A stretch of DNA of 64,000 nt, taken from positions 620,001 through 684,000 of the forward strand of contig JAUFOQ010000006.1 in assembly GCA_040285855.1 (NCBI GenBank). The letters run 5' to 3'. Of the stretch, positions 15,958 through 63,273 are shown one piece after another. Position 1 is the stretch's first letter, and each line of letters begins with the position of its first letter. Origin of the DNA: Eukaryota sp. GEM-RC1. Lineage: Eukaryota. Position numbers and translations under genes: made by a program. Under the pieces are notes generated by a model. It searched no databases. It worked only from the letters and a program-made list of their open reading frames with translations, and was not told the DNA's origin.

Positions 15958-16136
15958 GTTTCAGATAATTCTAGTGCAAAACAGAAATGAGTGGAGGGAA
16001 ATTTAAAATGTACAATATAGAAACTCAATTAAAGATACAGGGTTGTACCATTGAACTTGAACGAAAACCAAAATATTAAAATACATACAAGGTTTTATCT
16101 ACAGTTAAAATAGTAAGGAAAAATATATATATAAAC

Positions 16137-37714: not shown

Positions 37715-38449
37715 CAGGGATAGGAATTATTGGATTGACAATATACTGGTATTGGAAAACAGCTCACCAGTCAATTCAGTACAGGCTCCAATATATTGCC
37801 AATATTGCAATGTGTATAGATCGTACGTTAATACACTTAAATTAAATTAATTTATTTATAAATTAAGAAAGATATACTCCTAGTACTTAAAAGATATCAA
37901 ATGCAAAACGTATCTAAACATTAATGCAACAATTTATTACGAACAAATAGTCTAACCTCCATCTCCATCAACGATTTCGTCTTCTTCAGAACAGTGAAAC
38001 TGGCAAGCAATTCTAATAGTTTTCACATTCCAGAGATTTCTACTGTAGTGCAACCATAACTATTGATCACGACTTTCTGACGATAAACAAAATCGATCTT
38101 GGCCCGTACAAAGCTGAATGTGAAAAATAATCTTTCCACTTCAACAGAAGTTGCAGGAATGAACTCCAAGTTTTCCGTTTTCGGATCTCTCCGCACACAC
38201 ATATCCAGGTTTCCTAGCTGTCATTTGTTGACTGCAGGGTACAAAAGACCCCACAAACGACTGTTGTCAGGTATGTAAGGGAAGAAATAGTACATTTGGT
38301 ATTTTATTAGAGACGTACTGTATTGGTAATATTGGCAATACATTGATATTGAATAACAGAGGATCAATCAATATGTAGATTAGTAATATTAAAATTATAT
38401 TATTATTTTTGGTAATATTGGATTGGCAATTCAATATTTCCCATCTCCG
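37715..38449 (-). mobile_element. Second, inverted and diverged copy of the 29195 hAT element
   Basis: Starts CAGGGATAGGAA; the reverse complement aligns with 29195-29902, including the PATSVEVER relic at ~38135-38160. Confidence 0.8.
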
Positions 38450-38486
38450 TGGATGACACAGTTTAATTGAATTTTTTACAAATGTT

Positions 38487-38615
38487 GTGTTACATATCTT
38501 GTATTACATATCTTGTATTACACATCTTGTGTTACAGATCTAGTGTTACAGATCTTGTATTACAAATCTTGTATTACAAATCTTGTAAAACACATCTTGT
38601 GTTACACATCTTGTG
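38487..38615 (+). repeat. 14-bp tandem repeat (GT[AG]TTACANATCTT), ~9 copies, upstream of the secreted Cys-rich gene
   Basis: Read directly from the sequence. Confidence 0.85.
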
Positions 38616-38733
38616 ACAACTAAAAGACAATAGATAGTGACAATAGACTGGCATAAGTGACTTAACTTTATGAACAAAAGAAAAACATAATGAATCACGC
38701 TTTCTTACCTAAATCTTGCTCATCCCCACTATC

Positions 38734-39451: not shown

Positions 39452-39529
39452 TGTTGGTCTTTGGTACCATGTAAAGAGATAAAGTGAATTTATTATACAA
39501 TTAAGTCCTGATGAGTCATGACACTAACA
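39452..39529 (-). repeat. 3' LTR (78 bp)
   Basis: Identical to 45619-45696. Confidence 0.95.
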
Positions 39530-42500
39530 TTACTTCTTCCCCTTTTTCGAGGACCTAGTCCTCTTAGCAGGTGGAGTAGTGAGAATGACGGAATTAGGAG
39601 TGTTACTAGAGTTTGGGTTACGATTACGACTACTTCTAGGTTTACCTTTAGGTTTAGATTTGGGTTTGACGTGAGGGTTTAATTTAATAAAACTTGAGTA
39701 AGCCTTAGTATTCTTTACCAGACTCAGGGGTTCCTCAGTAGTATCACCATCGAACCATACGACGGAACATATGGGACCCGTAGGAGAATCACGTTGATCG
39801 AGGATCTCAGTGATGACCATTTCTTCAGAGTCAAAAGATGCCACTGCTTTGTGGAACTCGTCGGAGGAGGGTTTGTCAGAAAGGTACTTGGTGCATAAAT
39901 GAATGCTAGAGCGGAAGCGATGTCCAGTGACAAAGTTCTGCAGTTCAAGCGAGCTTTTGGAAGGTATATCAATGACGAGGTACGGTCCTTCTTGTTTGCC
40001 ATGTAGCTTCTTAGCTGCTTTGTTACTTCGTAGTACTAAGTCACCGATAGCAAATAGCGAGGGGGTATCGACTGTAGTAATGGAAGATTTGATAGATGAT
40101 TGGGTAGTTTCTGCTTCTTCCCGTTTTTTCCAAAATTCTCGTTAATTTTGATTGGTAATCAGCTAGAAATGAATCTTCTGAGATCTGGTTCTGAGTGAGG
40201 CAAGATATGATTTTACTCGGATCACTACCAGGGCTGGTGTCAGATCCAAACATCAATTCGTACGGTGTAAAGCCGGTTACTCTACTCTTCGTAGTGTTTA
40301 CCAGCAGTTGTACTAATGGGATGTTTTTACTCCAGTTGTCATAGTCATTGAAGTCTATGAGCATCTTTCGTAAAGCTTGTAGGATGTCTCTGTGTCGTCG
40401 TTCAACTAAACCGTTGCTAGGAGAGTAACTAGGAATAGATTTATTAGTTGTGATGTCAAATTGATTGCAGACGTCAGTTAAGACGTGATTAGCAAATTCT
40501 TTGCCATTGTCACTATGAATGATATCTGGAATGCCGAAGATGGCGCAAACGTTACACACCAACGAATATGCTGTTTCGTGATCATTCAGTTTCTTTAGTG
40601 GGCATAGGATTGTGAATCTGGTGAAGGAATCTATGAACACTAGTAAGTAAATGTTTCCCGATGTGTCAGTGGGAAGTGGTCCTATAGTGTCGACGTTCAT
40701 CTTTGCAAATGGTTTGTCGGACCACAAATTACCCGAAGATTTGATAGTTGTTTTGACAAGGGGAGCTGTCTTTTGACAAGCTGGACATTGCCTGCAGTGA
40801 GTTTTCATGTCGTTGATCATGCTGGGCCAGAAGTAGTCACTAGATTTTGGCCGATCAATGCTATCTTTAATGCTGGGGTGACCTGCATGTGGAAAACCGT
40901 GTAAGTGGTTCAAAGTGGTTTTCACCAAGGCACTTGGTATCAATATCTTGTTGTGGCTATTCATGTATAGCTGGAACTCTTCATTAAACCAAGTAGACGG
41001 ATGTTGGAATAATGGATCGTTATTTTTGATGGCTTCTACTTGTGTAGAGCGTACTTTCGAAAGCCAAGCATCGAGTAACTTCGATTTGTTGATGAGAGCA
41101 TCGTCAATCATGTTGATCCTCTGTTGATAAAGTTTGATATTCTGTATCCTCATCAGTAGGACATAGGCTATCGGTTATAGAGAACAAATGCTCGGGACAG
41201 TTTGTGACTATGTTGTTTATAGACCCTGTTGGTACGTCTTTGATAACGTTGCGTGACAACATGTCAGCCCAATGGTTGTCTTCGCCACTAGTGTGGACTA
41301 TAGTGAATAAGTATTCGCTGAGAATAGGGATCCATCTTTTGACCATCCTATTCTTTTCAGGTGCTGAGATTAAGTAAGCAAGGTTCTTATGATCTGTGAA
41401 GATCGTTAGTTCTCTGCTGATAAGGTATGATGACAGTTGTGATTCCGTTGAAATCAGGAGAATGGCGTACAATTCCTTTTGGATCGTGGCCCAGTTAGTC
41501 TGTGAGTAGTTTGCTGTAGAATGCTAGTGGTTCTACTTTGCGTTCGTTCAGTGGAGTTCCCTAAGGTGAGTGAGGGGGTGCATTCTAGCCAGACGACACC
41601 ACCTACGGCGATATCGCTGGCGTCTGCGCTAATCAGTATGCGTCTGTCTTTGTCTGGTTGACATAGTGGCATGTGATTCATTATCCTCTTCTTGATTTCA
41701 TCAAAATTTAATTGAGTTTGAGGTGTCCAGTGAACTGTTCGTGCATTGTTCTTTACTAAAGCTATTATGGGAGCTAGTAGGTCAGAAGCATCTGCTATGA
41801 AATCTTTGATGTAGTTGATTGAGCCGACGAAACTTCGAACTTCTTTGATGGTGGTCGGTGTTGGTATGTTTACCAAAGCTTCTACACGTTCCGAATCTAT
41901 TCGACGAGTGTTGTCGATGTATTCGCAACCTTAGATAATTATAGGATGATTCTTTGTTATGAACTTGCACTTGTGTAAGCCATGGTTGACTCTATAAAGT
42001 TGAGCTCTCTCAAGAACGAATTTTATTCTAAATAAGTATTCATCGAAAGTCTTAGCGACTGTGATGATGTCATCGATGTAAATGAATATACCTTCGTGGT
42101 CGAAAATATCCATCATCAAGTTTTGAAAGATTGCTGGTACGTTCTTTTGGCCAAAACAAGCTCGTTTAAATCGAATGGCTAGGCCGTGGATGACTAGAGT
42201 TGTCTTGTCACGTTCGTGATCCGCAGATTCAGTTGCCAAAATGCTTTTGGCAGGTTGAGAGTGGCTATGTAATTAGTTTCACTTAGAAATTCTTGTATGT
42301 CTGCGATTCTCGGTAGATTCGGTTCGACAGTCTTAGTAAGTTCATTGATTCCTCCAGTACCACTGAAGTCACCCGTAAGTCTAGGCTTACGATGATCGGG
42401 GTAGACCACAAGTACTACTGGGGAGCTGAATTTTCCGTTGGGATTAGTATACTCAGCGTATCCCAAACGGACTAGTTCATGAAAAGTTTCTTCGGCTATC

Positions 42501-45500
42501 CTTTGTTTGACAGGATTAAGCCTCCGAGGTTTTCGTTTCACCGTGGACTCTTCATCGTGGAAGTCAATTGTCATCGGTGAACAATCGATGCCATCTTTGT
42601 GTGGAACGGAATCGAAGATAGTTGAGAACTCGCTAAGTAGGTTCAGTAAACGATTGGTTCTGTCATCGTCATCTAATTTGATTGAACAGCCGGAATCATA
42701 AACAAATTTATTGAAATCTGTATTGTCTATAATAGAAGAGCTATTGGGCATAGATATGTTGGAGTCGAACTCAGACTCGTCGTTGCTATGAGCTAACATA
42801 GTTTGTTGAACTGGGATGATTAGTCCCTCTTCAGTCAGTAAACCTAACTGCTTCATGAGATCAATACCTAACAAATATTTGTTGGATCCAGGGATGCTAG
42901 GTAGAGTCTTCGTCACAGATGTTAGGTGTGACACCTTACTGAACTTGAAGGTCAAGATCCCGTGGGCGCTACCCAGTGAGTGAGATCTGACGTTGTTTGC
43001 TGATGTGAAGTGAACCTTCTTGTTGATGAAAGTCATTGAACATCTATCGACCAGGTCTTGTGTGATGACGGACATTGATGCTCCACTGTCCCATAAACCC
43101 TGAATCGAAACACCATTGATGGTCAGACTGCAACTGAGGAATGGTGGTGGATCCTGGTGATCGATAATGCTGAATATCGAATTCAGGCTTAGTGAGTTCG
43201 TACCACTCGAATTACTGATGTTGTGGAGTGGATTTGCGTATGGATTATGTGAATTCGACGATGATGTATTGTTGTGAATATGGTTTATATGTTGAACGTT
43301 ATACTTACTATATTTATTGTGTTTACGTGAACTATTACTACGAGAGGGAGGTTTCTTTGCCTCAGATCGTGGAAGGCGTTGATCAGCGGGAAGTTCACTT
43401 CTACGGCAGTCAGGGTGATTACAGTGAATGATCTTATGATCAAAAAAATCACAGAAACTGCATTTGTTGGGGTCTTTCTCAGTTGGGTCTTTCTTCTCGG
43501 ATCGGTTCTTCTTTTTGAAGGAAGGGGATGGAGAAGGAGCAACTCTTTGATCAGTTGATCAAAGTTTGTGACCGGCGGAAGTAGAGAAAGATTTGGTGGC
43601 TGATCTCTGCATAGCTTTGGGTAGGTCGTTCCATGAGTCTTTGTCTCGGTGGACTAGAATTTCAACGTCTTTCTATTCACGTTGAACATGTGCAGGGGGA
43701 GTGTTCCCATCTCTTACACCACGTGTTGTAGTGTTCGAGGGCGACGGCGAAGAACGTGTGGAGGTCCTTGGAGTCTTTGTACTTCTGGCCAGAGGGTTAG
43801 GTAAACGGAGGCGATACCGACATTCGTGAGTAGGGCTTTGATGATTACTCTTTCTTCGAGACTCGAGTAAACATTGGCCTTTGAAGTGCGCATCGGTGTA
43901 CTGCGATTTAGGATTTTGTCGAAACGTCTAATAAAAGTCCAGCCATCGGTCTTCATGGTCTCTAATGTTCCAGTTCATAACTACTTCATTGATCTTGTTC
44001 CTTGCTGTGATGTATTCTCGGAACTGTGTTCTGAGAATGATTTCAATAAAGAGGTTGCGGTGATCTTTCGTTGTTTTGCCTAGGTAGGACAATTGTTGTT
44101 GAACTCGGAAGTCTATCAAACGGGGAACCCATCTCGTGTCAGCGTCGCTGGCGGCAATACGGCCAATGTCGAAGAAAAAAGTAGCTTGACCCAAAGGTTT
44201 GTCGGTCGGTTGCTTGTAATCCGGTTGAGGTAAGCAAAAGCTCATGTAGTCTCCAATCCAATAAATCATGACGTCAGGGTCGTCAAGAGTTTTAAGGACG
44301 GGAGGAGTAATTGATTTGTTTAGCTCACTGTTGATGTCCGAAGGTAGTCTTTCATTGAATTTCAGTACCGAGTATGGTGTCTGAATTGGAGGAGGATTAT
44401 CCGACTGAGAGGGAGTGTGAGGCTGAGCTTCTGGAGATACTGAGAGGGCTCTTACCCTTTGACGGATGTTGAGGTCAGCATGGTCTCGGGGTCCAAAAGG
44501 CAATAGAGCTGGGTCTCTGGGCATTGAGTGTGGAGAAATTCCACCTGTACAATTCTCCGATATTCCACCGGGACTATAAGGAGCGTCTTCAACCAAAGGT
44601 GGAACAGTGTCCGAAGGGTTGGAGTTTATCGCAGGGATGCTGTAAGACGGAACTTCTACATCTGCGTAACTGCTGAGATCGTCTATCTGTCTTTCAATGT
44701 CTTCTACTTGTTCTTTTGAAAACGGTGTTTTCAGCAGATTGTAGGCTTGGGGTGTGGTCACTAGAGAATTTACACGGTTCTTGTCCATAATAAATCCTAA
44801 GAGTTTCCCCCTGACTGTGCAGATAGTAGCAATCTCTGGGTAGAGATTGATTCTGTTGTTGAAATACCTTTGGTAGACTCTCTTGAGCTGTTTAGCCGGT
44901 TTGAGGAGAAAACTGTCTTTCTCGTATTCAAGGTAAGTCTCACCGTTGAGACGGGCTTGTGTTCTGAACTCTTGCCATTGTACGGCGTCGAAGTTCTGAT
45001 ACATTCTGCGTTCCGCTTCATGAATTTCTTTAGCCGAGGAACTCGTGGTTAACAAACCTGGGAGATTGGGATCTGTTCCAGGCATGGTAAATCCTAGTAC
45101 CGTAGTAGGAGGCTTTGGAGCCATTTTAGGTTTGTGGGAGTTCCGTGGAATTGGCTTGGGTAACGGCGAAATTGAAGGGCTGGAGGCAGGGTTTGTCTAA
45201 GGTGTGACGGTGACAGGAGACGTTTTCTTAGGAGGAGTATTTCTATCCGCCTTTCCTGAAGAGGGAGGGTATTCGTTCTCGACGGGTGGGTCGGTGACCA
45301 CCGGGGAGTATACAACTTGGTGAATGGTTTCCTCGGGAGGATGGTCATCTTCGAAAGAGGAGTTAGCAGGAGATTCGAGACCCTCGTCGAACTCCACCGT
45401 GTCGTCCCAAGGTTTCCCGTCAGGTCCCAATTCGGTGTTTGGGGGAGGGTTATCCTTGGATGCCAGGTCGGAACTGGGCTTAGTAGTACCTAGGTCGGAA

Positions 45501-45618
45501 CTAGGGTTATGAGTCTTGCCTAGGTCGGAACTAGGGCTTGGGTTAGTGTTGTTTCCAGGAGTGAAATGCTCCGGAGTACATACGCATTGAGACTCTTTAC
45601 AGAGGCCACAATAATTAT

Positions 45619-45696
45619 TGTTGGTCTTTGGTACCATGTAAAGAGATAAAGTGAATTTATTATACAATTAAGTCCTGATGAGTCATGACACTAACA
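45619..45696 (-). repeat. 5' LTR (78 bp)
   Basis: Identical to 39452-39529. Confidence 0.95.
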
Positions 45697-46146: not shown

Positions 46147-48306
46147 TCAGCACCAGATTCGATCATTTACTTCGCTTCTCATAACAGATTGAGTTGTAGG
46201 ACTAATAACGTTACAATGAAAAGTGATTTCAGTAAGTGTAGAATTGGATTTTAGAGCTTCACTCAAGGCAATAGCACCATTATCCCCTATTGAATTTGAC
46301 TCTAGATTAATACAAGAGAGAGTCGTATTAACTTTGAACGATTCGCTCAAGGCAATGGTACCATTATCTGCTATAGAATTCTTCTCAAGATTAATATCTG
46401 AAATACTAGTATTAACTTTGAACGCTTCGCTCAAGGCAACAGCACCTCTATCACCAATACAATTGTGATTTAGATTAATCTCTGATATTTTAGTGTTCAC
46501 CTTGAACGCTTCGCTCAATGCAATGGCACCAACATCTCCAATAGAATTGTTCCCAAGATTAACTCTAGCAATTGCGGTGTTAACTTTAAACGCTTCGCTC
46601 AATGCAACGGCACCATTATCACCCATAGAATTATTCTCAAGAATAAGGTGAATTAGAGTAGAATTGAGCTTCAACATGTCAGCTAATCTCAAAACTCCTT
46701 CCACTCCAATTAAATTATTCAAAAGATTAATCCTAATAATTGTAGAATTAACAGTGAGTGCACTTGCTAATGCTGAGGCACCTTTTTTACCAATAGAGTT
46801 ATTCTGTAGGTCGAGAAAAGTAAGTGTAGAGTTAACTTTCAGTGCATTTGCAAATGCTACGGCTCCTTCTACACCAATAGAATTGGACTGCAAATCAATT
46901 TCAATAACTGAAGAATTAATTTTCAAAGCTTCTGCTAATGCTATCGCTCCTTGCGCTCCAATAGAGTTTGACTGGAGATAGATCACATCAACAGAAACAT
47001 TAACCTTCAACGCATCAGCTAACGAAACTGCACCTTCAGTACCAATAGAGGTACGTGTTAGGTCTAAAACACCAATGGTAGAATTCGATTTCAAGGCATT
47101 TGACACAGCCAGAGCACCCTCAACTCCAATAGAGTTATAGGAAATGTTAAGCTCCATCAGCGTTGAATTTGACTCTAACGCTTTAAACAATGCCACCGCA
47201 CCTTCAGCTTCAATTGAGTTAGACATTAGATTGATCTTAGTCAGGGATTCATTTACTGATAAAGCTTCTGCAAATGCTACTGCACCTGCACTTTCAATAG
47301 AACTGTTGAACAAACTAATATCAGTAATAGTTTCATTATCTTTCAACGCTTCAGCTAAAGCCACTGCTCCTTCAACGCCAATAAAGTTATACCCTAGATT
47401 GATCTTCTTAAGAGTAGAATTCCCACTCAAAGCTTCCGCTAAAGCCACTGCTCCTGCATTTGTTATAGCGTTAGCACCAAGATCAAGCTCGGTAAGACCA
47501 GTGTTGACTTTCAGTGCACCTGCTAATACAATTGTGCCTGTGTTTCCAATAGAATTTCCCAAAAGCTCAAGACAACCAACACTTGTATTGACTTTCAAAG
47601 CCTCAGCCAATGCCGTTGCTCCTTCAGTATCTATATCGTTAGTGGGAAGGCGGAGTTCTTTAAGAGTGATATTGTTCTTGAGATGTCTGCAAAAGGACTT
47701 AAAGGACGGATTGGAGGGAATCTGGACATAGAGGTGTTTAAGGTGTGGTAGATAATATGTGGAAGAGTTGCTTAGAAATTCAAAGCTCAGATAAGCTGAT
47801 TTTAATCTTAATCCTGTGATGACGTGAGAATAATTGAGAAAGTCCGTGACTGCAAAGGAATCATGTGCATCCAGGAATACAGAATGAGGTTGAGTGTCAA
47901 AGAGGGAAGCAATGGAACAAAGTCGAGGAAGATCTTTAGAAACAACTGGAAATGTACTTGTCTGGAAAAACAGTTTTACTGTCAATAAAGCGCATTCAAA
48001 GAAGGACTGGCTTACAAAGGCAACAATGTTGAAGAAGGAGCGTAGTTGATTTCGAAACTGACGAAAAGGTCTTTGAGGATCCCAGAAATTCTCTTTAAGA
48101 GATGATTCTGAAAGAGCTCTCAGTAGATGGGAATCGATCAACACTAGTAAGGATCGCTGAAAATGGATAGGATTGCAGATAGGTTCATCATTCAAGGTGT
48201 TTAATGGTGAAACTGTACGAATTGCGATGTTGGATGGCTGCTCTGTTTCTAAACTGCATTTGACTGTGTTTGCATCATTCAAAAGCTTTGAATGTTGTGG
48301 ATCCAT
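46147..48306 (-). CDS. RI-like leucine-rich repeat protein (NLRC3-like)
   Basis: ~18 28-aa repeats NSIGxxGAxALAEALKVNxxLxxLxL; intact 719-aa ORF. Confidence 0.9.
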   Translation of the reverse strand: MDPQHSKLLNDANTVKCSLETEQPSNIAIRTVSPLNTLNDEPICNPIHFQRSLLVLIDSHLLRALSESSLKENFWDPQRPFRQFRNQLRSFFNIVAFVSQSFFECALLTVKLFFQTSTFPVVSKDLPRLCSIASLFDTQPHSVFLDAHDSFAVTDFLNYSHVITGLRLKSAYLSFEFLSNSSTYYLPHLKHLYVQIPSNPSFKSFCRHLKNNITLKELRLPTNDIDTEGATALAEALKVNTSVGCLELLGNSIGNTGTIVLAGALKVNTGLTELDLGANAITNAGAVALAEALSGNSTLKKINLGYNFIGVEGAVALAEALKDNETITDISLFNSSIESAGAVAFAEALSVNESLTKINLMSNSIEAEGAVALFKALESNSTLMELNISYNSIGVEGALAVSNALKSNSTIGVLDLTRTSIGTEGAVSLADALKVNVSVDVIYLQSNSIGAQGAIALAEALKINSSVIEIDLQSNSIGVEGAVAFANALKVNSTLTFLDLQNNSIGKKGASALASALTVNSTIIRINLLNNLIGVEGVLRLADMLKLNSTLIHLILENNSMGDNGAVALSEAFKVNTAIARVNLGNNSIGDVGAIALSEAFKVNTKISEINLNHNCIGDRGAVALSEAFKVNTSISDINLEKNSIADNGTIALSESFKVNTTLSCINLESNSIGDNGAIALSEALKSNSTLTEITFHCNVISPTTQSVMRSEVNDRIWC

Positions 48307-48314
48307 TATCGGTA

Positions 48315-48476
48315 ACTGAATTTCCCCTTACTACTTAGTAGTAATCTGTGCTTTTCATATAAAATGAAAACCCCAGAATTTCTTTTATAGATTAATCCAG
48401 ACTGAATTTCCCCAATGAATCCTAAGATTCAATAATTCTACAGATTCACTGTAGTACATAAAGGCTATGACTATGA
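48315..48476 (-). ncRNA. Candidate omegaRNA-like structured region: two hairpin-hairpin-GGGGAAATTCAGT modules
   Basis: Immediately 3' of the Fanzor stop; 13-nt direct repeat at 48315-48327 and 48401-48413; four short hairpins. Confidence 0.4.
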
Positions 48477-50600
48477 CTATGACAAATAACTGGGTCTAAT
48501 TCCTAGACCCCGCTCCAAATGATGCTCCACAATTGTCTTGATGTTGATACATGCTAACTTGTTACGATTCCAAACCTTGGCGCTACCATGACATTCTTCT
48601 CTACATTCTTGGGACTTGCATCTCAACAAAGCGTGACACTTTACTAGAGGTTTCTTCTCTCTTTTCGATGGTCTTGGATTACTGATTTCTTTGAACACTT
48701 TGACTGGCCTCCAACAAGTAGGACACTTTGAAGACGTGTAACTCTCATCTACCAGAACAATATTGTAACCATTTCTCTTAAAGAAGTTTCTCCAACCCAC
48801 ACCTCTACTTGATCGGAGGTGTTTTAGGTTCTGCGTCTTATTAACATTGTCACCAAACATCAATACACAGCCATCTTTATTCCATCCTTTTGCAGTCATA
48901 TTTTTCAACAACTTACTTTCTGTTTTTTGAATATGGACATATCTTTGCATTTTTGAATGCGCCATATCATCAAACAGTAGTAGTCAAATGTTGATTCAAT
49001 AACTGTCAGTTTGGAACTCACATAGTCATAGAAGGTTTCATAAACGGTTGACTTCGAGTTTTCTTTGGATAATGTTGACTCTTCTTCTTCAACTGTCTTT
49101 CCATCTAGGAGAATAAATTCTTTTTTCTTTCCCCTTCTAAACTTTTGATGAACCCTTGACCATCTGGACCATTCTGTTTCTGTCAATCTTAGCCACTCAT
49201 ATTCTTTGTTTCTTCTTTCTCGGGCTTTTTGTTCAGGAAATGGCCTATTCACTTTCTCTGAACAAAAATAGAGTAAATCTGTTTTTCCAGGTTCAATAAA
49301 AACTTTTGTGTTCAATGAAAACTCTTCAACAACATAGTCTTGAACATATTCTTGTTTACTGGAGAACTTTGCACTGTCTGGTTTAAAGGACATTCCAACA
49401 CAGTCCTCTCTAGTAAGTTCAACACAAGCAGAGAAACCATCAGTTTTAATGGTATTGTTATACTTATAACCTTTCTTTAAAAATGGACGATTGAAGTTGA
49501 AAAAATGTGACCAGAATAAGTTTTGTTCAGCAGGAGACATGTGTTCAATTTCAACTTTTGTGTTCCACTCAGACATTTTCTTCTTGACATTCACTTGTTT
49601 TGTTGACAAAGTGGAACGTAATATTCCCCAAAGACCTTGTGTGTCTATTTCAAAGAAACCTGGTGTGACGTGACGAACAATAGGAATTACATTGTAAGCA
49701 CTTGCTCCTTCACTTTCAAGATAGTTATTTATTTGAATCGCAGATTTAATAAAGGATTGAGGATGTTCACGAACTGATGTTAGTAGAGATTTAACGACTT
49801 TCTTTTTATAAACACCATTAGCATTTTGAACATCAATTGACGGTGGGAAGAGAACATCAATAAAATATTTATCTCAAAAACAATCCTTCAACATAGTCGT
49901 TAGTTGCCCACAGAAGTTTAATTTTACCTGCAATGTTCAAACTTCTATTACTGTCGTCTTGAAGAATTTCTGTATTACATCTTTGAATAAATTGTTTTAT
50001 TTCTGCAGGGGTTTTTGGAATGTCATTTCTGTTACCTTCAAGAAAGACATTTTTAACTTGTCTAAGTCTCCAACAAAAAACAGACAGTTCTTTTTTTGAC
50101 ATTTTTTCTTCTTGATCAGTCTTTTGAAAATAAACATTAATAAATTTGTCAATTTATTGAGCATATCGCATTTAAATATTGGTGTCCAGATTCTCTTTAA
50201 TAGTTTCACCAACCATTGCCATAAGTCGTGAGGAATGACAGGCTGGAAAGAGTGGAATTCCACCATTGTTGAGCATTACTTGTTTGTATTGATTTATAAC
50301 AAATGTTCTCAAGTGTTCATTAAATGTAGGAGGTCGTCCTTGATTACATAATTCAATCTCATGATGTTCAGCAGAGATGTTTCTTAACAGAGTTTGAACA
50401 TGTTCAACTTCCTTCCTTGTATTTAAAGGTAATTTTTCACCATTCTTATCCATGTGTAATAAAAACAGCTTCAAACAATAGGAAGTGTGCATTCTAAGTT
50501 TGTGAACCAATTGAGCATAATAATCGAGTAATAACGTTAATCCAAAATGTTTGACAATAGACTTTAGTGTAGTTTTATGTGTTACAAAAGTTGGACGAAC
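48477..50600 (-). CDS. Fanzor (eukaryotic TnpB homologue, Fanzor1-like) domain of the polyprotein; RuvC-I D>E and RuvC-III D>N
   Basis: KTTLKSI...HTSYCLKLFLLH; NVIP....PGFFEIDT; IKTDGFS; IEPGKTDL; MFGD; VLVDESYTSSKCPTC; HALLRC....C; WNRNKLACINI. Two in-frame TAAs near 50150-50175 and two frameshifts. Confidence 0.88.
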
Positions 50601-50639
50601 GATTTTATTTGATTGAAACAATAAAAACAACTTCAATGC

Positions 50640-51345
50640 TAGTACACTGTCTTTGAAGCAATAGTTCCCAACTTCTTGAGGTCTTTCAACAACACAATCA
50701 ATAGGCAATAAGTCGTGAAATTCGTCATGAAGACGTCCTTTAGATTCGTTTAATAAAAACCAACTTAATGTTCTTAAAGACTTGGAACATTTTGAAACAA
50801 TAAATTGCTTAGCATAGACGTACGAATCACATACAATTCTACCAGCCCATTCAGAACAAGCATTTTGCCATAGATGAGATAGATGAGATTTAGTTGTTTC
50901 ATCTAGCATTGGTTCTGGAAAGTTGACTCCAAGTGTAACAATCCCGTTGCCTAAAACAACTACATCGAAGTCAGTTATGTTAAATCCAGTTAAAACTGAG
51001 GGATTTTTATCATTCAAATAGTTGACAAAAACTCTATTAACTGTTTTTCGTTTTCAAAAAATCGAAGGTTGCTACAATCAGGTGGCAGTTCAACATCAGA
51101 TTCATGAGTCAACTCTGAAGTTGCAACAAAATTGTCTTGAAGGTAAAACTGATCTTTTATAAAATGACCAAACACTCCAGAAATCATGAAAACTTGTTGG
51201 TTTTGAATCCACACTTCTTTTCTGCATCACTTTTCATTTTGAGAGATTTATTCTCGTTCTTTCTTTGATCATCCAACTCCTCTGTAAGTGTCTCTGCAGG
51301 GATTTGATCAATTTCTCTAGTTTCAATATCAAAAGACAATATTGA
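50640..51345 (-). CDS. Family-B DNA polymerase-type DEDDy 3'-5' exonuclease domain, in frame with the Fanzor N-terminus
   Basis: ExoI SFDIET, ExoII NPSVLTGFNITDFD and ExoIII YCFKDS; ExoII, ExoIII and the Fanzor start lie in one unbroken ORF (50172-51017). Confidence 0.82.
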
Positions 51346-51701
51346 ACAATGATTAGAGTTATTTGGTAATTGGGAATGTTTGAGAAACTCAATCATTGGT
51401 TTTTTAGGAGGTTTCAAACTCTTTATCGCATTTGATACTCCACTTGCTTTTGGTTTGGTGGTTTTCCTTTTGGCAACTGTTGACTTTCTATTTCCTGCTG
51501 CTGTTGTTGTTTCAGTGGTGTCGGATGATTCAATTGTTTCTTTTTCTGTTGTATCAGGTTTCTCACAAGCCGCAACATTTATCTTTGGAGTTGGTAAATT
51601 TATTTCTGGAAGATCTGTCAACTCTGGACGACTAAAGTTATGATAACTTTCTTGAAATAATTCTTTAGCTTCTTCCAGCGCTTGTTCAATCATTTTTAAC
51701 T

Positions 51702-53496
51702 TCAAAAGACGTTTCTTTTCCGGTTAGATAAATTTCCAGGTAAACTTTTGGGAAAGTTTTGATAAGTGAGCTTTGACACCGTTTCCTTGTAACTACTATC
51801 ATCTAACATTGTTTCAGGAGTTGAACTTTCAGATTGACACTGTACAGGTTGATTAACAGGTGATTCAATCTCATCAGAATAAAACTCACCTTGGGCATGA
51901 GTACATACATATTGTCGGTATTCATCAGGGTGATCTTCATCAGGGTGAGTAGTAACGATTTGAGACAGTATTTGTTTTCTCATTTCTAATGCATTATAAG
52001 CAACACAATTAGAGACTTTAGACAGAATTTCGAAAAGATTTGTTGATGTTGATTCACACTCGACAAATTTATTCATATACATTAGAATAAATGGACCACA
52101 GTCATTAAGTGTTTGGACTTGTTGAACTGGTACTCTGGCTATATAGCTGAAATTTGCCATATCAAACAGGAATTGCTGTAATTGTGAAATGACATTGTCA
52201 ATACGTGATAAAGTGTTAGAAAACTGAGAATGTTGATCTTCTGTACACATTGAGTCAATAGAGAAGTATTGTTTATTTTGAATATCACAAATTAACAGTG
52301 ACCAGTGAGTGGCTGTTGTATCAAAGAGACCGTCATGTATTGGAATAAACAAGAAACGTTTCTTACACTTTTTAGTGTGTCTTTTACTGGATTTTTCCAT
52401 TGATAATTGAACCTCTCTAAATTGTTCAAACATTATGTTATACTGTGAAAGATTGATTGCATCTTGAATGTTGGCTACTTCAAAGAACTCGCATCGATTA
52501 CTCTTTTCAACAATGTACTGACCAACAAAGTCAATGACAGAATCATGAAGCAGCACATTAGGTTTCAGAGTGTCAATTTGATCAGATCTTAGTAAAATTG
52601 GTCTAGGACGAGATTGTGTTAGAATTCCACGATGTTGATGTTGTATAATTTGATATTTTTGAGAAAATTTCTTCTTTTTTGGAGGATATTTTCTAGATTT
52701 ACGAGTTCTTCGTGTACGATTTGAGTCTATAAGTTGATGGGGAGTAGTCAATGGCACTTGTCGAGTTTCATCAGGAGATGAAATTACTGTTGGGGTTGAA
52801 TGTGCTTGAGTGCTGTTTGAAAAGCACTCATTGACAATACTTACAGCAAGTATAGCAAAAGGCGTAGGATGAGTAGTTCCTATTAGATTTAGAACTTGTT
52901 TTCTCATTTCAAAAGCATCATAATCGACATAACCTTGGACTTGAGACATAGTTTCCTGGAAATTGTCAGATGATGATGCCAAATGAACAAATCTTTGCAT
53001 ATACATTAAGATATATGGTCCACAGTCGTTGGGAGTTTGCTGTTTAATAACTGGGAGCTTTCCTAAATTGGAAAAATTACCAAAATCTCGCAAATATACC
53101 TGTAAAGTACTGACAACTTGATCATTGTGAGTTGAAAGGTCAAATGAAAGTTGAATTGAACTGTCAGTGTACATTGGATCAATTAAAAAAAATGACGTAC
53201 TATCAATGTCACAAACAAGTAGAGTCCAATGAGTTGCTGTACCACGAAAGACACCATCGTTTATTGGAATAAATAAAAACCTTTTCCCAGTCTCTCGCAT
53301 TGAATTTTTGAACATTTAGAAATTCAAGAGCTAATGTGTCAAAATCGCCATAACTCACTGCAGCATGAAGATTCCCGATACAGAAAAACTGGCATAACTC
53401 ACTATTCTCGGTGATGTACTCACCATAAAAGTCAACAACAGAATCATCGAGCCATACGGAGGGCTTCAATGTAGTGATTCCTTCCTGAGTGACAAA
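51702..53496 (-). CDS. Tandem Ulp1/SENP-like (C48) cysteine protease domains of the polyprotein
   Basis: WLDDSVVDFY...FIPIN...HWTLLVCD...QQTPNDCGPY, and LLHDSVIDFV...FIPIH...HWSLLICD...QTLNDCGPF; both His-Asp-Cys triads intact. Confidence 0.88.
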
Positions 53497-53739
53497 AGGA
53501 CCAGGGTTTGATTCTATGTGTCCATCGATAGTCAAATCACAGAGAAATTGTGATGACTGGAGACTTGATTGTAGAAAAACCATACAAGTGCTGACTTTAT
53601 GATCGTAAAAACAAAACAACGACTGAGACGAACTCAAGACTTTCCTTAACAACAACAAAAGAAGAAACAACATAGAATAATTCGAGAATCCATGAGGAGA
53701 AAAAGGAACGCCTCGAGAAAATATGTTCTCTTGGCACAT
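53497..53739 (-). other. Leader peptide MCQENIFSRGV-hydrophobic-2A-like motif (DLTIDGHIESNPG|P)
   Basis: Matches D(V/I)ExNPGP except His for Asp; lies directly before the first Ulp1 domain. Confidence 0.7.
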
Positions 53740-53899
53740 CCTTAAACACGTGATCGTGTTTGGTTGATGAAAAGAAGAAGGAGAGAGATCTCAGGACACA
53801 AGTATCCATAGACATCTCTCCAAGCAATTGGACTCAAATATAAATTCAGACTATTTATAGATGTTGTCTACAGTGACATCTTGACATACTGAAACTGAC

Positions 53900-54012
53900 A
53901 ACATATGTAACAACAACATTTAATAGTACAACATTTAATAGTACAACATTTGTTACAACAACATTTGGTGACACAACATTTGTTACAACAACATTTGGTG
54001 ATACAACATTAG
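53900..54012. repeat. 15-bp tandem repeat (ACAACATTTGTTACA-like), ~7 copies, upstream of the polyprotein gene
   Basis: Read directly; a TATA-like CTATAAATA lies on the minus strand at ~53852-53860. Confidence 0.75.
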
Positions 54013-54475
54013 TTGAAAACTATAAGATACAAAGTATACATGATTTATGAAAGTATTTATAATTTATCAACTACTAGTACCATCTCAAGAAAACAACTCT
54101 TATGCTCCCAATAATAAATTGTGAATATATTCTTTCAAAGATTTAATAATGCAGATAATTACATTGACTTGTCAAGTGTTTATATTGATAGATTCTCTTT
54201 AGACGACTAGTATCAATTAAGTCAACTGTATTTTCTTTAATCTTTTGAGTTTCTTTTATTGTAACAAATATGACCTTTTGTGCGAAAAAATCTATATAAA
54301 TAAAAAGAACAAAAAATAAAAAAACGGAAGAGAATGTATTCGAGAAAGCAAAGAGTAACATCTAGATGTAGGAACAGAAGTAGAGCCCACACGTGTCTTC
54401 GTATCTTAAGGTTATAGTATTGGTTCAGCAGAGCGATGACGGTCCAAGGTTTTGAGGATGGAGCGCCTTCGACGT

Positions 54476-56987
54476 TATATCTTTACTCTGTTGACTCTAG
54501 TAAAATAGCGTCCACACTTATCATAGAACTCTAGAAAAAGTTCCTGGACCTGTGCTCTGTATGGAGTCAAAACAGCCACTGTCACTTTTCTATCCAACAA
54601 TTGCTCCATCTGTGATTTGTGATTTTTTTACAAAATTAGTAACTTGTTCCACAATGGCATTACATTCAGCCTTATTCAATAGACTCCCTGAAAGTTCGGC
54701 AGAAGACTTGTGATGAGAGCCAATAGTACTCACAAATTGTCTCCCTGGCAAATGTGAAGTGACCTTTGTAGGGTTCAATGGTACTAATTTTGTCATCATA
54801 AAATTGGGTATCAGAAAAATTCCACAATTCTGAAAATTGTCGATATTGTGGATTAAGCTGAGTATACCTGTTATTGTCTATCATTGCAGAGGTCAGTCTT
54901 TCCATAAGAGAAATCGACAATTTTGAATTCTTACTGATTACCACTGGTGGTAATTGTTGGGGATCTCCAACAATCACGACTGAAGTTTCGTCGCTTTTTA
55001 AAGCAGATACAATTTCTGGTTCAGTTGCTTGAGCAGCTTCATCTATGATAGGGACACTTGTAGGAAAAATCTTTTCTTGTCTGTCTGTATCCACTTGCAA
55101 GAGCTAATGTAGTAAAAACAACATCAAATTCATTCTTAATCTAACTCAAGTCGAGCTTTTCTTCTTTTCATCAGCAGTGATAGCACTGACAGATTCAACC
55201 GTTTCAGCATCAGGATTCAAGGCTTGTCCAAAAAATTCATCAACTGATTGTGGAACACGAGATAGATTGTGACCGATAGCGTTTTTTCTTTGTTTCTCAT
55301 TTTCAATTGCATCTCTGTCTTTCTTTTCTTCAATTCTTTTTGGCAGTAGAAATTCTTGAATTGATGGAGGCGGATCTCGATTCTGAGCACTGATACGGAG
55401 TAGCTTGTTTCTATCAATGTTGGGTTCATTTGACAGCTTCTCAAGAATGACTTCAACGGCATTATTTGAAGGTGCCGCAACCCATACTGGACGTTTATCA
55501 GCGATTAATGACATAATTAGTTTCACAATTGTCATTGTTTTACCAGTACCAGATCCACCATGTATGAAATACAATCCTGGTCTAGAAACGTGTAACTCTC
55601 TAATTCTTCCAACTGAGTGTCTTTGTGAATTATTCAAATTTTTGAAAATTTCTGGTGAACCTGGTGTAAGATTCGCTTCACATGGAGAAATTGGATCTGA
55701 TGATCCAGCAATGTTCAATTGATATTGAAACCGAGGAGGAACTTTCAAATCTAACATGGCTGAAATTTGACGTAAGAAATTGCTGCCAGAACCAACTTTA
55801 ACTGGAACTTCAAACGTTTAAATTTAAATTCAATAATGCAAAAACAAGTTATCTGAAGACCCAACATTTTCACAAGGACGTGCTTTTGAAAACTCTGCTG
55901 CAAAAGATATTTGAACTAATACTTCATACATTGGCAGATTTAGTTCATGAATTGTATTCAAAAAAGTTTCAAAACTACTGATATTGTCGCGAAATGATGG
56001 ATTTTTAACTCTATCAGCCAAAATAAGACGAATTTTGGTCAAATATCCATGTTTGTGTTGCCGTGAAGGTTGTAAAGAGTATTCCATGAAGCATTCCTGT
56101 TTATCAATGTTGTTCAGACCAAGACAACAGTTTGCAACCGTTTCATCTAAGAGTTTATTGATCCACTCAACTGAATATTCATTTGGAATTGCAGTGTGAT
56201 AAAGCTCACTAATGAATTCCTTCTTTTGATCGTCAGGCAATTGAATTTGGTGTCTAATATTTTCAGAATTTTCCTTGACAATAGCCCAAAATTTGAACAT
56301 ATATGGCACATATAAACTATTCACAGATGGTTTTTTGTCTCTGAGAGGGGCTTGTTGAGAAGATGGTTCAATCTGAAAGAAATTTTGGCCAAAAATATAA
56401 GAAGAACCAGAATCAATGTTTTTCGAGGCAAAAACATCGATAGCAATTCTAATCTATCAGTTTCAAGAAAATCGTTGAGTTGGTTTTCAGACCAAAAAGG
56501 TACTACTTTGCGCTGACTCATTCGATCTTTTTGCAGTAAGGGATTAGGTGTTTCAGATAGGAAAGGTCTGTTATGGTCGGCGAGATCAGGCAAGTCTTGT
56601 GGTGGGGCACTAACTTCATATTCTGCTGTTGGTGGTTCATTCTTGTGAACCTCTTTAATCTGATTAGTGGCCCAGGTTTTTCCTTCTGATACTGATTTAA
56701 CCCTGTTATGTCTAAGCTTTCCTATAACATAGTCAGCTTTAAACGATGTTCGATTATGGTTTTTGTACCAATATGTTTTATTTTCGACATCTACTAAGAA
56801 AAAAAAGAACAATATCAGGTTTGCGGGGACCAGGGTTGGCTTCGATATCACCATGCTGAGTAAGATCATGTGCAAAAGGTTGTGCTGATGAAAGAAGAGA
56901 AAAAATGAAGGAGATGGAAGGAAAGATAAAGAAGTTTGGGAAAAGCCAAGACACAACGCCTCGAGAAAATATGTTCTCTTGGCATTG
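54476..56987 (-). pseudogene. 2A-leader plus Upf1/DNA2-like SF1B helicase gene, frameshifted, C-terminal motifs V/VI not evident
   Basis: Canonical 2A DLTQHGDIEANPG|P (56826-56870); LNNSQ; GGSGTGKT; AAPSNNAV; IIDEAAQATE; VGDPQQLPP; QYR; N.AE; VLTPYRAQ. Confidence 0.82.
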
Positions 56988-57239
56988 GTCTGAAGAACTG
57001 ATGTTCTTTGTGAGACTAAAAAGGGCAAGTGGAGTAGTAGCATATGATGAAATGAAATGGCGCTTTTTTATGGTGGAGTACCATTTGCATAATTTCGAGT
57101 GTTGATTTCTTCCATCAATCAACAACTAAGAAGACGTTTCTATGTAGCGATTTTTGATTAATCATGTCAGTAATGATCATGATATTGTTGAGTTTTATGG
57201 ATATTTTGAGAAAATAGTTATGTTTCTCTTATATATATA

Positions 57240-57844
57240 GTAGGTGTCCCAATACAAGCAAAGTTCCAATACAAGCAAGGCCCCAATACAAGCAAGTAAA
57301 AGTGTTTGCTTGTATTATTCTATTGCATTCGGGATGTTGAGCGGGTTATACTTCAATACAAAGTTTGTTAAGGTGAATTACGACGTATGGAGCTGTGGAC
57401 GAACTTCATAGTGTCCAATTAAGTGCCTAAATGTTGTTGCGGATTTTTACCCGAAGAACTCCATGGAGTTATTGTATTGTTTGGCATTTATAAAATCAGA
57501 AGCACAAAATGGCGTTTTAAAACCAAATTATGGAACATTAGGCAATAGAATCCCTGTCATTAGAACTTTGCTCCTATAAGACAAATATTGTGTACTTGTA
57601 GAACAAATTAAAATACTGTTATTAAAGCATGTGTCATAGTGTGTTGTTATAAATTTTTGTTCTATTTAGAATACAGTGTACAAGTAGCATTACGAATTAG
57701 AGTATGTGATCCTGTAATATATTGAAAATAAAGGTGTCGTCGCTTCACCGTATAATAGGGTCCCAATACATGCAAGGTCCCAATACAAGCAAGAAAATGT
57801 GTTTGCTTGTATAAGATATAAAGTTGCTTGTATTGGGACACCTA
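57240..57844. mobile_element. MITE with 22-bp TIRs (Tc1/mariner-pogo-like, in TA-rich context)
   Basis: GTAGGTGTCCCAATACAAGCAA ... TTGCTTGTATTGGGACACCTAC; internal CCAATACAAGCAA repeats. Confidence 0.85.
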
Positions 57845-57988
57845 CGATATTCGCATATCAAAGTGATGTGTCAAATCAGTGCCATTTCAAGATTAAGATT
57901 GTATAAGAGTTCTCCTTACGTTTCCCACAGTGCAGTGTTTTAGTATTTTTTCACACGTTTCTTCCAACTTAGAAGTGACGCTTGACCT

Positions 57989-61434: not shown

Positions 61435-61976
61435 TGAGATTAACTGGAGGGGTTTTAAGTTTTGTGGACATTTGCCGATGAGTAAACATCAGAACATTGT
61501 GACAGTATCAGTTTAGTGTTTGGGGAAAGTGTATTTCAATTTGATCGATTGTCAATCATGCTTTTGGGCTGTTGTTCCACCATGATTATTACATTGATGA
61601 TGTTTGTATCATTTCTTTGACTCGGTCTCAACCTTTGCTGTGTTACAAATACACATTACATTGCTATTCTAATGATTATTGAGATTAAACTCACCTGTTG
61701 GCGTATTCCTTATTCATGTCTGTCAAATTAGTGGAACTTAGAAGGAGTGTACAGTATTGAGATTAACTGTTCCTAGCCCTTCTAACCTACTCTTCAATTG
61801 CCATCTTTTGTACAGTACATTACTGGTGGTGTTGCTAGCCAGTATTAGATTATACAGTATTTCTCGTATTTAATTCATGTTGATTGAGATCAAAATGCAG
61901 TAGATATTTGATTGAGATCAGAAAGAGTTTGATCGAGGTTTATGAACATAAAATCAAACAAATTTATTCAGAAATA

Positions 61977-62300
61977 TCAACAGCGGAGGAATACCTTCCA
62001 CATTGTAGTAGTAATCGTGTGTACGTTACAACCACAGCCATCACACTGAAGGCCGTCGGGACCAAAATTGATAGTAGCGATGTTTGTTTTGGCTCTATAT
62101 CTTACAGAGGAGGATCCTGTATTACTGGCATAAGCCCATTTCTTTGGATAAATTTAGTACTCAGGAAAGTCTTCCCATTGACCAGAAGTTGATGTGTATA
62201 TACGTTCGATGGTAGAAGAGGAAAGATTGTGGATCACAACCCGATACAGAGTACACTCGGACAACACAAGAAGGAGGAGGAGGCCTAGAAGAATAGACAT
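61977..62300 (-). pseudogene. Tandem paralogue of the small secreted protein at 62615; one in-frame TAA
   Basis: Translates MSILLGLLLLLVLSECT...FPEY*IYP...ASNTGSSSVRYRA...FGPDGLQC.GCGC...WKVFLRC. Confidence 0.8.
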
Positions 62301-62614
62301 GACGAGAAGAAATTTGGCCCCTTTGATTCAAAATGTACAATCACACCACAATGAGATGTGGAACCTCCTGCGGATGATCAATCCATGTTGACCAACCTTA
62401 GTGACCGACGCATTGTTAGTTCCTGTCCGGAAAGGAATATAAAGCTGCTGAAATTGCGGCAAAGGGATGAATCTAATCTGTATTGTCGTATCGAACGATT
62501 GGAATGAGAGATCTTCCTTCACCCATTGGATTTCCACCAAGTCTTCGCCTCAACTTGATTGATATCAGAAAGAGTGTTATGAACTTAAAATCGAACAGAA
62601 TTTATTGAAACACA

Positions 62615-62938
62615 TCAACATCGGAGGTAGACCTTCCAAGCCGTAGTAGTAATACTGGAAGTTGTACAACCACATCCATTACATTGAAGGCCGTCCGGAC
62701 CAAATTTGATAACAGCAGTGTTTCCATTGGCTCTATATCTTACAGAGGAGGATCCTGTGTTACTGGCATTAGCCCATGTCATTGGAAAAATTAAATGCTT
62801 AGGAAACTCTTCCCATCGACCAAATGACGATGTTTGTAGACGTTCGATTGTATTAGTTGAACGGTTGTGGATCTGAACCTGATAAACAGTACACCCAGAC
62901 AACACAAGAAGGAGGAGGAGACTTAGAAGAAGAGACAT
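62615..62938 (-). CDS. Small secreted beta-rich protein (107 aa)
   Basis: Signal peptide MSLLLSLLLLLVLSG; conserved with the adjacent paralogue. Confidence 0.75.
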   Translation of the reverse strand: MSLLLSLLLLLVLSGCTVYQVQIHNRSTNTIERLQTSSFGRWEEFPKHLIFPMTWANASNTGSSSVRYRANGNTAVIKFGPDGLQCNGCGCTTSSITTTAWKVYLRC

Positions 62939-63273
62939 GATGTAAAGAACATCGAGGCGAGTTGTTGAAATTGGAGTCATGTGTATTATGAAGACTCGTA
63001 CATTCAAAGCTGAACCAAAAATATATCAATAGTAAACAAAAGTGATGGTCTGTTTACGAGCAATGGTAATACGTCAAAAGTAATAGTGATTCCAAATGCT
63101 GGAGAACGACTTGGATGCGAAGTAGTCTAAAAGTAGATTCTAGGACTCTTGGAGAATGCAATAGAATGAATAAGAGGAGGTTTGTCTTGAAAGGAAAACA
63201 AGCACGAATTTAGGAAAGAAGACGTGCAAATTCTCTCTTGGGAAGGTCAAGTGGAAACCCACATCATCAACGC

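What the first reader, a model, noticed from the sequence alone, without database searches (positions are those of the whole stretch)
48477..53739. Fanzor fused into a 2A-Ulp1-Ulp1-exonuclease polyprotein: a candidate RNA-guided effector system
Seen: minus-strand ORF fragments are colinear and join into one ~1750-codon frame: leader/2A, two Ulp1-like proteases, a linker, a PolB-type 3'-5' exonuclease and a full-length Fanzor. Five of the six frame junctions are single-base changes in A/T runs (e.g. IEFF|VNYLNDKNP, WRIQK|MQRY). The exonuclease-Fanzor junction needs no correction because it lies inside ORF 50172-51017. Known: Fanzors are omegaRNA-guided TnpB homologues, usually stand-alone cargo; Ulp1 domains are recurrent transposon cargo. 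Inference: Fanzor may act as a programmable targeting module that delivers deSUMOylase activity (anti-silencing) and exonuclease activity to chosen loci. I do not recognise this architecture. Caveat: two in-frame TAAs and one non-homopolymer shift (~49870) suggest this copy is decaying.
Basis: partly seen in the sequence, partly recalled or inferred. Interest (0 to 1): 0.95.

Follow-up and report, generated by a model that had tools for sequence, protein, structure and literature searches.

The report
RNA-guided Fanzor fused to proofreading exonuclease
This is a broken copy of a multi-copy gene family of free-living protists in which a Fanzor, a protein predicted to cut DNA under RNA guidance, is joined directly to a DNA-polymerase-type trimming exonuclease that likely chews back the cut end, while the proteases in front are swappable extras; I found no description of such a natural fusion.

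Summary
The architecture is real. Fragments at 53739-48477 (minus strand) read as leader/2A-like, Ulp1, Ulp1, basic linker, PolB-type DEDDy exonuclease, Fanzor1. Relatives from three named protist records hold exonuclease plus complete Fanzor in one protein (11 records; 3 also with Ulp1). The window copy is broken as assembled: six frame breaks, two TAAs, RuvC-I D to E. The constant unit is exonuclease-Fanzor: 2-3 residues apart in the model, one clade (SH-aLRT 100), exonuclease catalytic residues kept at 27-47% identity, and a D-E-N RuvC triad like active GtFz1. The proteases are not constant: two, one or none follow the 2A, one record has the protease before the 2A, and two copies with 97-98% identical cores carry 32% identical proteases. 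They score best against deNEDDylase SENP8, narrowly. So 'guided deSUMOylase delivery' is weakly supported. Most likely (inferred): a selfish homing nuclease whose exonuclease trims the 3' end left by the cut. No omegaRNA, element ends, expression or activity shown. Not found in the literature searched, nor earlier in this scan.

The parts
53700..53860 (-). Structured 5' leader region with a TATA-like box at about 53858 and three hairpins; the last (53707-53736) is a 30-nt sequence shared exactly with the leader of the upstream 2A-helicase gene
   Evidence: (z -3.4 to -4.4, 40 shuffles)
53527..53739 (-). First ATG and hydrophobic leader peptide
53497..53526 (-). 2A-like motif DGHIESNPGP (H instead of the conserved D); skipping untested
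52866..53490 (-). Ulp1/SENP-family (C48) protease 1, His 53231, Cys about 53024; split by the first frame break (53315-53269)
51936..52598 (-). Ulp1/SENP-family protease 2, His 52307, Cys about 52100; 54% identical to protease 1 (tandem duplicate)
51350..51935 (-). Acidic then Lys/Arg-rich linker with a conserved helical motif; frame break at about 51712
50600..51349 (-). PolB-type DEDDy 3'-5' exonuclease: ExoI 51336, ExoII 50987, ExoIII 50663; frame breaks at about 51215 and 51030
48477..50591 (-). Full-length Fanzor1: RuvC-I EPG 49294 (D in 23 of 23 relatives checked), RuvC-II E 48746, C4 zinc finger, RuvC-III N 48563; TAAs at 50171 and 50153, frame breaks at about 49870 and 48950
48301..48476 (-). 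Candidate omegaRNA/right-end region: locally structured (z -3.1 at 48301-48400; whole 201 nt only z -1.5), with a 13-nt direct repeat at 48401-48413 and 48315-48327; unverified
   Evidence: no Rfam match
54480..57125 (-). Upstream frameshifted gene with canonical 2A motif (56837) and an Upf1/IGHMBP2-like SF1 helicase; shares the 30-nt leader hairpin; may or may not belong to the same element

Best explanation
The locus is a broken copy of a multi-copy, likely selfish, gene whose core is a Fanzor1 fused at its N-terminus to a PolB-type 3'-5' exonuclease; intact copies are predicted to cut DNA under RNA guidance, and the exonuclease would then trim the 3' end left at the break. Shown: the fusion, its single origin, conserved catalytic residues, and a variable front cassette (2A-like peptide, 0-2 Ulp1/SENP8-like proteases). 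Inferred: an omegaRNA from the element's 3' end guides the nuclease to the element-free site; SpuFz1 cuts the non-target strand 16-17 nt beyond the TAM, so the TAM-side end carries a 3' tail that has no match in the element-bearing donor; the tethered exonuclease would remove it so the end can prime copying of the element (homing), and would also stop simple re-ligation. The proteases are cargo that likely blunt host ubiquitin-like (NEDD8 or SUMO) control; in some lineages they are tethered, in others released by the 2A or absent.
For: Fusion in one protein in 11 records with ExoI, ExoIII and RuvC-III, from records of three named protists. AF2 model of P0015 (pLDDT 82, pTM 0.73): residues 131-380 match PolB exonucleases (Z about 16) and 383-1096 match SpuFz1 (Z 26.3, rmsd 3.2 A over 569 residues; TM 0.82). 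DxE, NxxxFD and YxxxD kept in 8 of 8 exonuclease seeds, 27-47% identical between subfamilies. The 12 family rows form one side of a branch among 114 (FastTree 0.995) and among 62 (SH-aLRT 100). RuvC D-E-N; GtFz1 cuts with D-E-N and SpuFz1 D606N is more active (PMC11423790 passages). Many 90%-identical copies per genome (clusters of 1-11 gene models). Fanzor/TnpB as homing nucleases (PMC13565253 passages); cut positions (PMC10432273 passages). Precedent: the PolB proofreading domain of T4 gp43 and DexA affect td intron homing efficiency (PMC2988022, PMC12153337 passages). Protease swap: P0019 vs P0025 exonuclease 97%, Fanzor 98%, protease 32%.
Against: No activity, omegaRNA, expression, element end or empty site was seen; no transposase or terminal repeat encloses the gene in the window, so what is excised or homed is unknown. 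Relatives are gene models that may hide predicted introns (P0003 lacks two short stretches present in P0012) and their DNA could not be seen. In the window's own subfamily two of three rows have E at RuvC-I (the window, and P0033 with further changes around it), which would fit nuclease-dead offshoots. 3' trimming can also favour deletion over homing.
Confidence: 0.55

Rival explanations
1. Cut-and-chew deleter: the exonuclease makes Fanzor breaks non-religatable so that targets (rival elements, viruses, or empty alleles) are mutated or destroyed rather than converted.
For: Same anatomy and catalytic conservation. Engineered 3'-5' exonuclease TREX2-Cas9 fusions raise editing rate and deletion size (PMC13370227 passages).
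Against: Multi-copy, young, frequently broken copies look selfish rather than domesticated; no guide matched to any foreign target could be tested.
Confidence: 0.17
2. One reading: Fanzor is mainly an RNA-guided address module that delivers deSUMOylase (or deNEDDylase) and exonuclease to chosen chromatin to lift silencing.
For: Protease(s) with intact His-Asp/Asn-Cys lie downstream of the 2A, hence tethered, in the window, P0003/P0012 (two) and P0019/P0025/P0030/P0006 (one). Tandem duplication seems to have happened twice (54% within the window pair, 33% within the P0012 pair, 17-23% between). RuvC-I is E in the window and P0033.
Against: No protease between 2A and exonuclease in P0082/P0194/P0195 and P0186/P0189; P0189 has a protease Cys motif upstream of the 2A (domain E 1.9e-5). 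23 of 23 other relatives checked keep RuvC-I D. SENP8 outranks SUMO proteases (51.8 vs 45 bits).
Confidence: 0.12
3. The exonuclease matures the 3' end of the omegaRNA guide, or turns over RNA, rather than acting on DNA.
For: DEDD enzymes include RNases (general knowledge); guides are trimmed to 14-15 nt in Fanzors (PMC13565253 passage).
Against: All sequence and fold matches are to DNA polymerase proofreading domains; stand-alone Fanzors mature guides without it.
Confidence: 0.07
4. Accidental read-through of adjacent cargo genes, or a gene-model artefact, without functional coupling.
For: Relatives are automatic gene models from long-read assemblies (PMC11316075 sections 6 and 17); P0014 and P0007 join unrelated DEAH helicases to the core and may be mis-spliced.
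Against: The junction is inside one ORF in the window's DNA, has the same short length in 8 of 8 seeds, and is kept across subfamilies 25-50% identical.
Confidence: 0.07

Closest known systems
Fanzor1: Spizellomyces punctatus SpuFz1 (PDB 8GKH, 9CEU-9CEZ), Parasitella PpFz1 (9CF0), Guillardia theta GtFz1 (9CER)
   Same: Whole-length fold (TM 0.82, Z 26 to SpuFz1), DPG RuvC-I, shifted RuvC-II glutamate, C4 zinc finger; D-E-N triad as in GtFz1.
   Different: Other complete-looking hits are stand-alone (77 of 78, median 654 aa, at most 791). This family adds an exonuclease directly on the N-terminus plus a basic linker, 2A-like peptide and optional proteases; no terminal inverted repeats or transposase seen in the window.
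Family B DNA polymerase proofreading exonuclease (Pol delta, alpha, epsilon; T4 gp43 43Exo in td intron homing)
   Same: DEDDy motifs and fold (Z about 16); 43Exo and DexA act in homing after an endonuclease cut.
   Different: No polymerase domain; here the exonuclease is covalently tied to the (predicted) RNA-guided endonuclease instead of being supplied in trans.
SENP8/NEDP1 and Ulp1/SENP1-2 (C48 proteases); Ulp1 cargo of plant Mutator-like and other transposons (recalled; only search listings seen)
   Same: His-Asp-Cys triad with oxyanion Gln; best hit SENP8 in four searches.
   Different: Only 17-36% identity among family copies, exchangeable, fused to a nuclease; substrate unknown.
Engineered TREX2-Cas9 and exonuclease-Cas12 fusions
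   Same: 3'-5' exonuclease on the N-terminus of an RNA-guided nuclease.
   Different: This one is natural, eukaryotic, and has almost no linker.
Nuclease-dead TnpB derivatives (TldR, Cas12k)
   Same: TnpB-family targeting scaffold joined to other functions.
   Different: RuvC catalytic residues are kept in this family as a whole.

Membership tests
Fanzor1 | D-X(125-275)-[TS][TS]-XX-C4 zinc finger-X(5-50)-RD motif (Bao and Jurka 2013) | tested here: met
   Present with spacing about 187 in P0012; last residue is N (RN), the variant shown active in GtFz1
Fanzor1 | DPG at RuvC-I | tested here: met
   D in 23 of 23 relatives in the list checked (DPG or DLG); not met in the window copy (EPG) nor in P0033 (EPD), which was outside that list
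Fanzor1 | RuvC-II glutamate six residues before the zinc finger | tested here: met
   ESYTSSKC at 48746
Fanzor1 | Fanzor1 fold and sequence affinity | tested here: met
   phmmer E 1e-27 PpFz1, 8e-27 SpuFz1; Foldseek E 4e-28, VIA Z 26, on relative P0015/P0011
Fanzor1 | Conserved omegaRNA scaffold after the stop followed by a variable guide | tested here: inconclusive
   Local structure z -3.1 but no second copy of DNA to compare
Fanzor1 | RNA-guided, TAM-dependent DNA cleavage | not testable with these tools
   needs RNP biochemistry
Fanzor1 | Residence in a transposon with defined ends | tested here: inconclusive
   Multi-copy in relatives but no enclosing TIR, TSD or transposase found in 38000-64000
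DEDDy PolB-type 3'-5' exonuclease | ExoI DxE, ExoII NxxxFD, ExoIII YxxxD | tested here: met
   window 51336, 50987, 50663; 8 of 8 seeds
Family B DNA polymerase | Polymerase (palm) domain after the exonuclease | tested here: not met
   Fanzor begins 2-3 residues after the exonuclease; no DNA_pol_B match
C48 Ulp1/SENP proteases | His-Asp-Cys triad and oxyanion Gln | tested here: met
   both window domains; Asn replaces Asp in P0018/P0019
SUMO-specific proteases (Ulp1, SENP1/2) | Closer to SUMO proteases than to NEDD8 protease SENP8; SUMO cleavage | tested here: inconclusive
   SENP8 ranks first (51.8 bits) over SENP2 (45) and Ulp1 (37.9); margin small; activity untested
2A/StopGo peptides | D(V/I)ExNPGP motif | tested here: not met
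   window copy has HIESNPGP; motif is canonical in 9 of 13 relatives with a 2A-like site and in the upstream helicase gene; skipping untested
Nuclease-dead TnpB effectors (TldR-like) | Family-wide loss of RuvC catalytic residues | tested here: not met

The most novel reading that the evidence does not exclude
A eukaryotic, naturally modular RNA-guided platform: a constant exonuclease-Fanzor cut-and-trim core onto which the element swaps different front cassettes (one or two deNEDDylase/deSUMOylase-like proteases, possibly DEAH helicases), with 2A skipping deciding which effectors stay tethered, so that host ubiquitin-like marks are stripped at the very site being cut and converted.
Probability: 0.22. 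Interest if true: 0.9.

Novelty: new variant of a known kind. Interest (0 to 1): 0.72.

Why it matters
How Fanzor breaks are processed in eukaryotes, and what Fanzors do for their elements, is open. A clade that has kept a proofreading-type exonuclease welded to Fanzor through deep divergence makes this testable with one point mutant, and links RNA-guided homing to the end-trimming known from phage intron homing. It is also a natural counterpart of engineered exonuclease-Cas fusions, on a scaffold with the D-E-N triad that improved SpuFz1, so intact relatives are ready candidates for a compact deletion-biased editor. The swappable protease cassette is a lead on how protist mobile elements counter host ubiquitin-like control.

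Tried and rejected
No whole genome is held for the window; sequencing runs and encoding contigs could not be obtained, so error versus decay and the element's ends stay open. The search for related loci found no relative in viral contigs or metagenome contigs; a 3' motif scan of viral contigs gave 0. Rfam: only two sub-threshold miRNA hits in the TIR element. ESM Atlas: nothing for P0015, only PolB-exonuclease leads under 0.9 for the junction. TAA read as glutamine: rejected, since neighbouring long genes are open in the standard code and a paralogue has K and Y at the two sites. RuvC-III N as inactivation: rejected. Self-processing of the polyprotein at a SUMO-like GG before the exonuclease (seen in the P0012 subfamily): not conserved in the window or P0019 subfamily, dropped. 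13-nt repeat as target-site duplication of the whole element: no upstream copy in the window. Polinton or Helitron membership: no polymerase, integrase or Rep domain found beside the gene; not excluded beyond the window. Homologue search with the upstream helicase gave only two distant hits, so its link to the element is untested.
Full report
Observation. The minus strand from 53739 to 48477 holds eight colinear open fragments spanning 5263 nt, about 1754 codons. Six are 168-537 aa; 0 of 300 shuffles gave six runs of 160 aa or more. Pfam finds two C48 (Ulp1) stretches, a PolB exonuclease and a weak TNB zinc finger. tblastn of relatives tiles the fragments in order. There are six frame breaks and two TAAs. 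Four breaks are one base short in an A or T run relative to proteins that read through; the first is one base long and not exactly placed; the one near 49870 is not a simple run change. The exonuclease-Fanzor junction needs no correction. In addition RuvC-I reads EPG and the 2A-like motif has H for D.

The fusion is real. A search for longer homologues of ORF 50175-51017 gave 6 proteins among 1565 candidates; a second search added one; cluster look-ups gave 30 gene models in 7 clusters, all from records named Eukaryota sp. GEM-RC1 or TZLM3-RCL. The nearest (88-96% identical over long stretches) are P0001, P0008, P0010. Of all proteins fetched, 11 hold ExoI, ExoIII and RuvC-III in one chain and three of these (P0003, P0012, P0019) also hold Ulp1. 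A profile search of 1.84 billion representatives gave 2022 hits at E 0.001 or better, of which the best 150 were listed; 7 of the 150 carry this exonuclease. Five of those seven were looked up by name and one (P0004) was already named; all six belong to these two records or to TZLM1-RC; P0042 was not looked up. Hits ranked below 150 were not seen, so a distant fused relative elsewhere is not excluded. PMC11316075 (sections 6 and 17 read) describes Skoliomonas, free-living soda-lake metamonads that include the GEM-RC and TZLM3-RCL strains, with nanopore assemblies corrected by short reads and 28-55% repeats. I did not determine where the window itself comes from.

Error or decay. Relatives' gene models break at the same runs (P0010 at the 51712 site, P0002 at the 48950 site), and the neighbouring LTR element with identical 78-bp LTRs is also in pieces, while SAS-6, an aminotransferase and the LRR gene are open over 320-726 codons. 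This fits homopolymer errors in repeats, but inherited slippage is possible. The two TAAs and the D-to-E change are substitutions not shared by P0002, so this copy is probably dead. Reads were not available to decide.

The Fanzor. The C-terminal half matches PpFz1 (E 1e-27), SpuFz1 (8e-27) and GtFz1. An AlphaFold model of relative P0015 on a 124-row alignment (pLDDT 82, pTM 0.73) matches SpuFz1 over residues 383-1096 (TM 0.82; Z 26.3) and PolB exonucleases over 131-380 (Z about 16); viral matches are stand-alone Fanzors and, separately, polymerases. RuvC-I is D in 23 of 23 relatives listed; P0033, outside that list, has E with other nearby changes. RuvC-II E is kept. RuvC-III is N throughout the clade. 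GtFz1 cuts with D-E-N and SpuFz1 D606N is more active than wild type (PMC11423790, passages). Twelve family rows, some of them C-terminal fragments linked to exonuclease-bearing cluster mates (none for P0033), form one side of a branch among 114 rows (FastTree 0.995) and among a 62-row subset (SH-aLRT 100); no sister group is resolved.

The exonuclease. DxE, NxxxFD and YxxxD are intact in the window and in 8 of 8 seeds that are 27-47% identical between subfamilies, and the distance from ExoIII to the first Fanzor strand is constant. Best solved sequence match is Pol delta (E 7e-4). No polymerase domain follows.

The front end is variable. Between 2A and exonuclease there are two proteases (window, P0003, P0012), one (P0006, P0019, P0025, P0030) or none (P0082, P0194, P0195, P0186, P0189). 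P0189 has a protease Cys motif upstream of its 2A, where skipping would release it. P0019 and P0025 are 97% identical in the exonuclease and 98% in Fanzor but 32% in the protease. The window's two proteases are 54% identical to each other and 17-23% to those of P0012, so the doubling likely arose twice. P0014 and P0007 join two different DEAH-type helicase regions to the core, which may be mis-splicing. SENP8/NEDP1 is the top solved match in four searches, but by only about 7 bits over SENP2. The 2A motif is canonical in 9 of 13 relatives (motif from the abstract listing; classes from PMC12338488 passages).

RNA and ends. The 100 nt at 48301-48400 fold better than shuffles (z -3.1, one of 28 windows tested; the whole 201 nt z -1.5) and a 13-nt direct repeat lies at 48401 and 48315. 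This is where an omegaRNA would be, but with a single DNA copy it is unproven. No enclosing TIR or transposase was found.

Mechanism. Shown: fusion, single origin, catalytic conservation, multi-copy state, exchangeable front cassette. From established work: Fanzors use a 3' transcript with a 14-15 nt flank-derived guide and OMEGA nucleases act as homing endonucleases (PMC13565253 passages); SpuFz1 cuts the non-target strand after base 16-17 (PMC10432273 passages); T4 43Exo and DexA affect intron homing (PMC2988022 and PMC12153337 passages; the primary 1999 paper was not held). Inferred: the cut leaves a 3' tail that does not match the element-bearing donor, and the tethered exonuclease removes it, blocking re-ligation and allowing the end to prime copying. 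I put this at 0.55, a deletion or destruction role at 0.17, guided protease delivery at 0.12, RNA trimming and mere read-through at 0.07 each.

Novelty. Searches for Fanzor or TnpB with exonuclease, Ulp1, DEDD, fusion or protease terms listed nothing describing this; 'exonuclease' occurs 0 times in the main texts of PMC3627910, PMC10530073, the Yoon preprint and PMC13565253, and 'fused/fusion' 0 times in PMC10432273; the ESM preprint does not mention the lineage. Only passages were read. I did not examine the supplementary Fanzor tables of these papers, which could list such proteins, and most subscription journals are not searched. The scan's own notes held no such finding. Verdict: a new variant of Fanzor1; interest 0.72.

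Noticed in passing
window 54480-57125 (-): Frameshifted gene with a canonical 2A motif, an unknown N-terminal region and an Upf1/IGHMBP2-like helicase; shares an exact 30-nt hairpin (56955-56984 = 53707-53736) with the leader of the Fanzor gene, hinting at a common regulatory module of 2A-led genes.
   Followed up: partly
window 57235-57850: About 615-bp non-coding element with 27-nt terminal inverted repeats (96%) and internal 16-17 nt sub-terminal repeats; MITE-like, directly upstream of the 2A-helicase gene.
   Followed up: partly
window 39452-45696 (-): Ty3/gypsy-like LTR retrotransposon with very short (78 bp) identical LTRs, TG...CA ends and a 4-bp target duplication, yet protease-RT-RNase H-integrase split over many frames.
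   Followed up: partly
window 53898-54017 and 38448-38629: Two small tandem arrays (15-nt and 14-nt units) with similar TGTTACA-type cores; the first lies just upstream of the Fanzor gene's leader.
   Followed up: no
P0014, P0007 (relatives): Gene models joining two different DEAH/HrpA-like helicase regions to the linker-exonuclease-Fanzor core; real cassette or mis-splicing unknown.
   Followed up: partly
P0033 (relative): RuvC-I region is altered at several positions including D to E while the rest of the Fanzor C-half is conserved: a possible nuclease-dead offshoot next to the window's subfamily.
   Followed up: no
window 46147-48327 (-): Intact 726-codon NLRC3-like LRR gene starts about 170 nt after the Fanzor stop; its 5' end would be the guide source if the right end lies at the second 13-nt repeat.
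   Followed up: no
window 11974-15960 (-) and 19036-24776 (+): Inverted pair of paralogous genes ending in long acidic tandem repeats.
   Followed up: no
window 61961-62311 and 62599-62949: Local duplication of about 340 nt at 80-82% identity, 638 nt apart.
   Followed up: no
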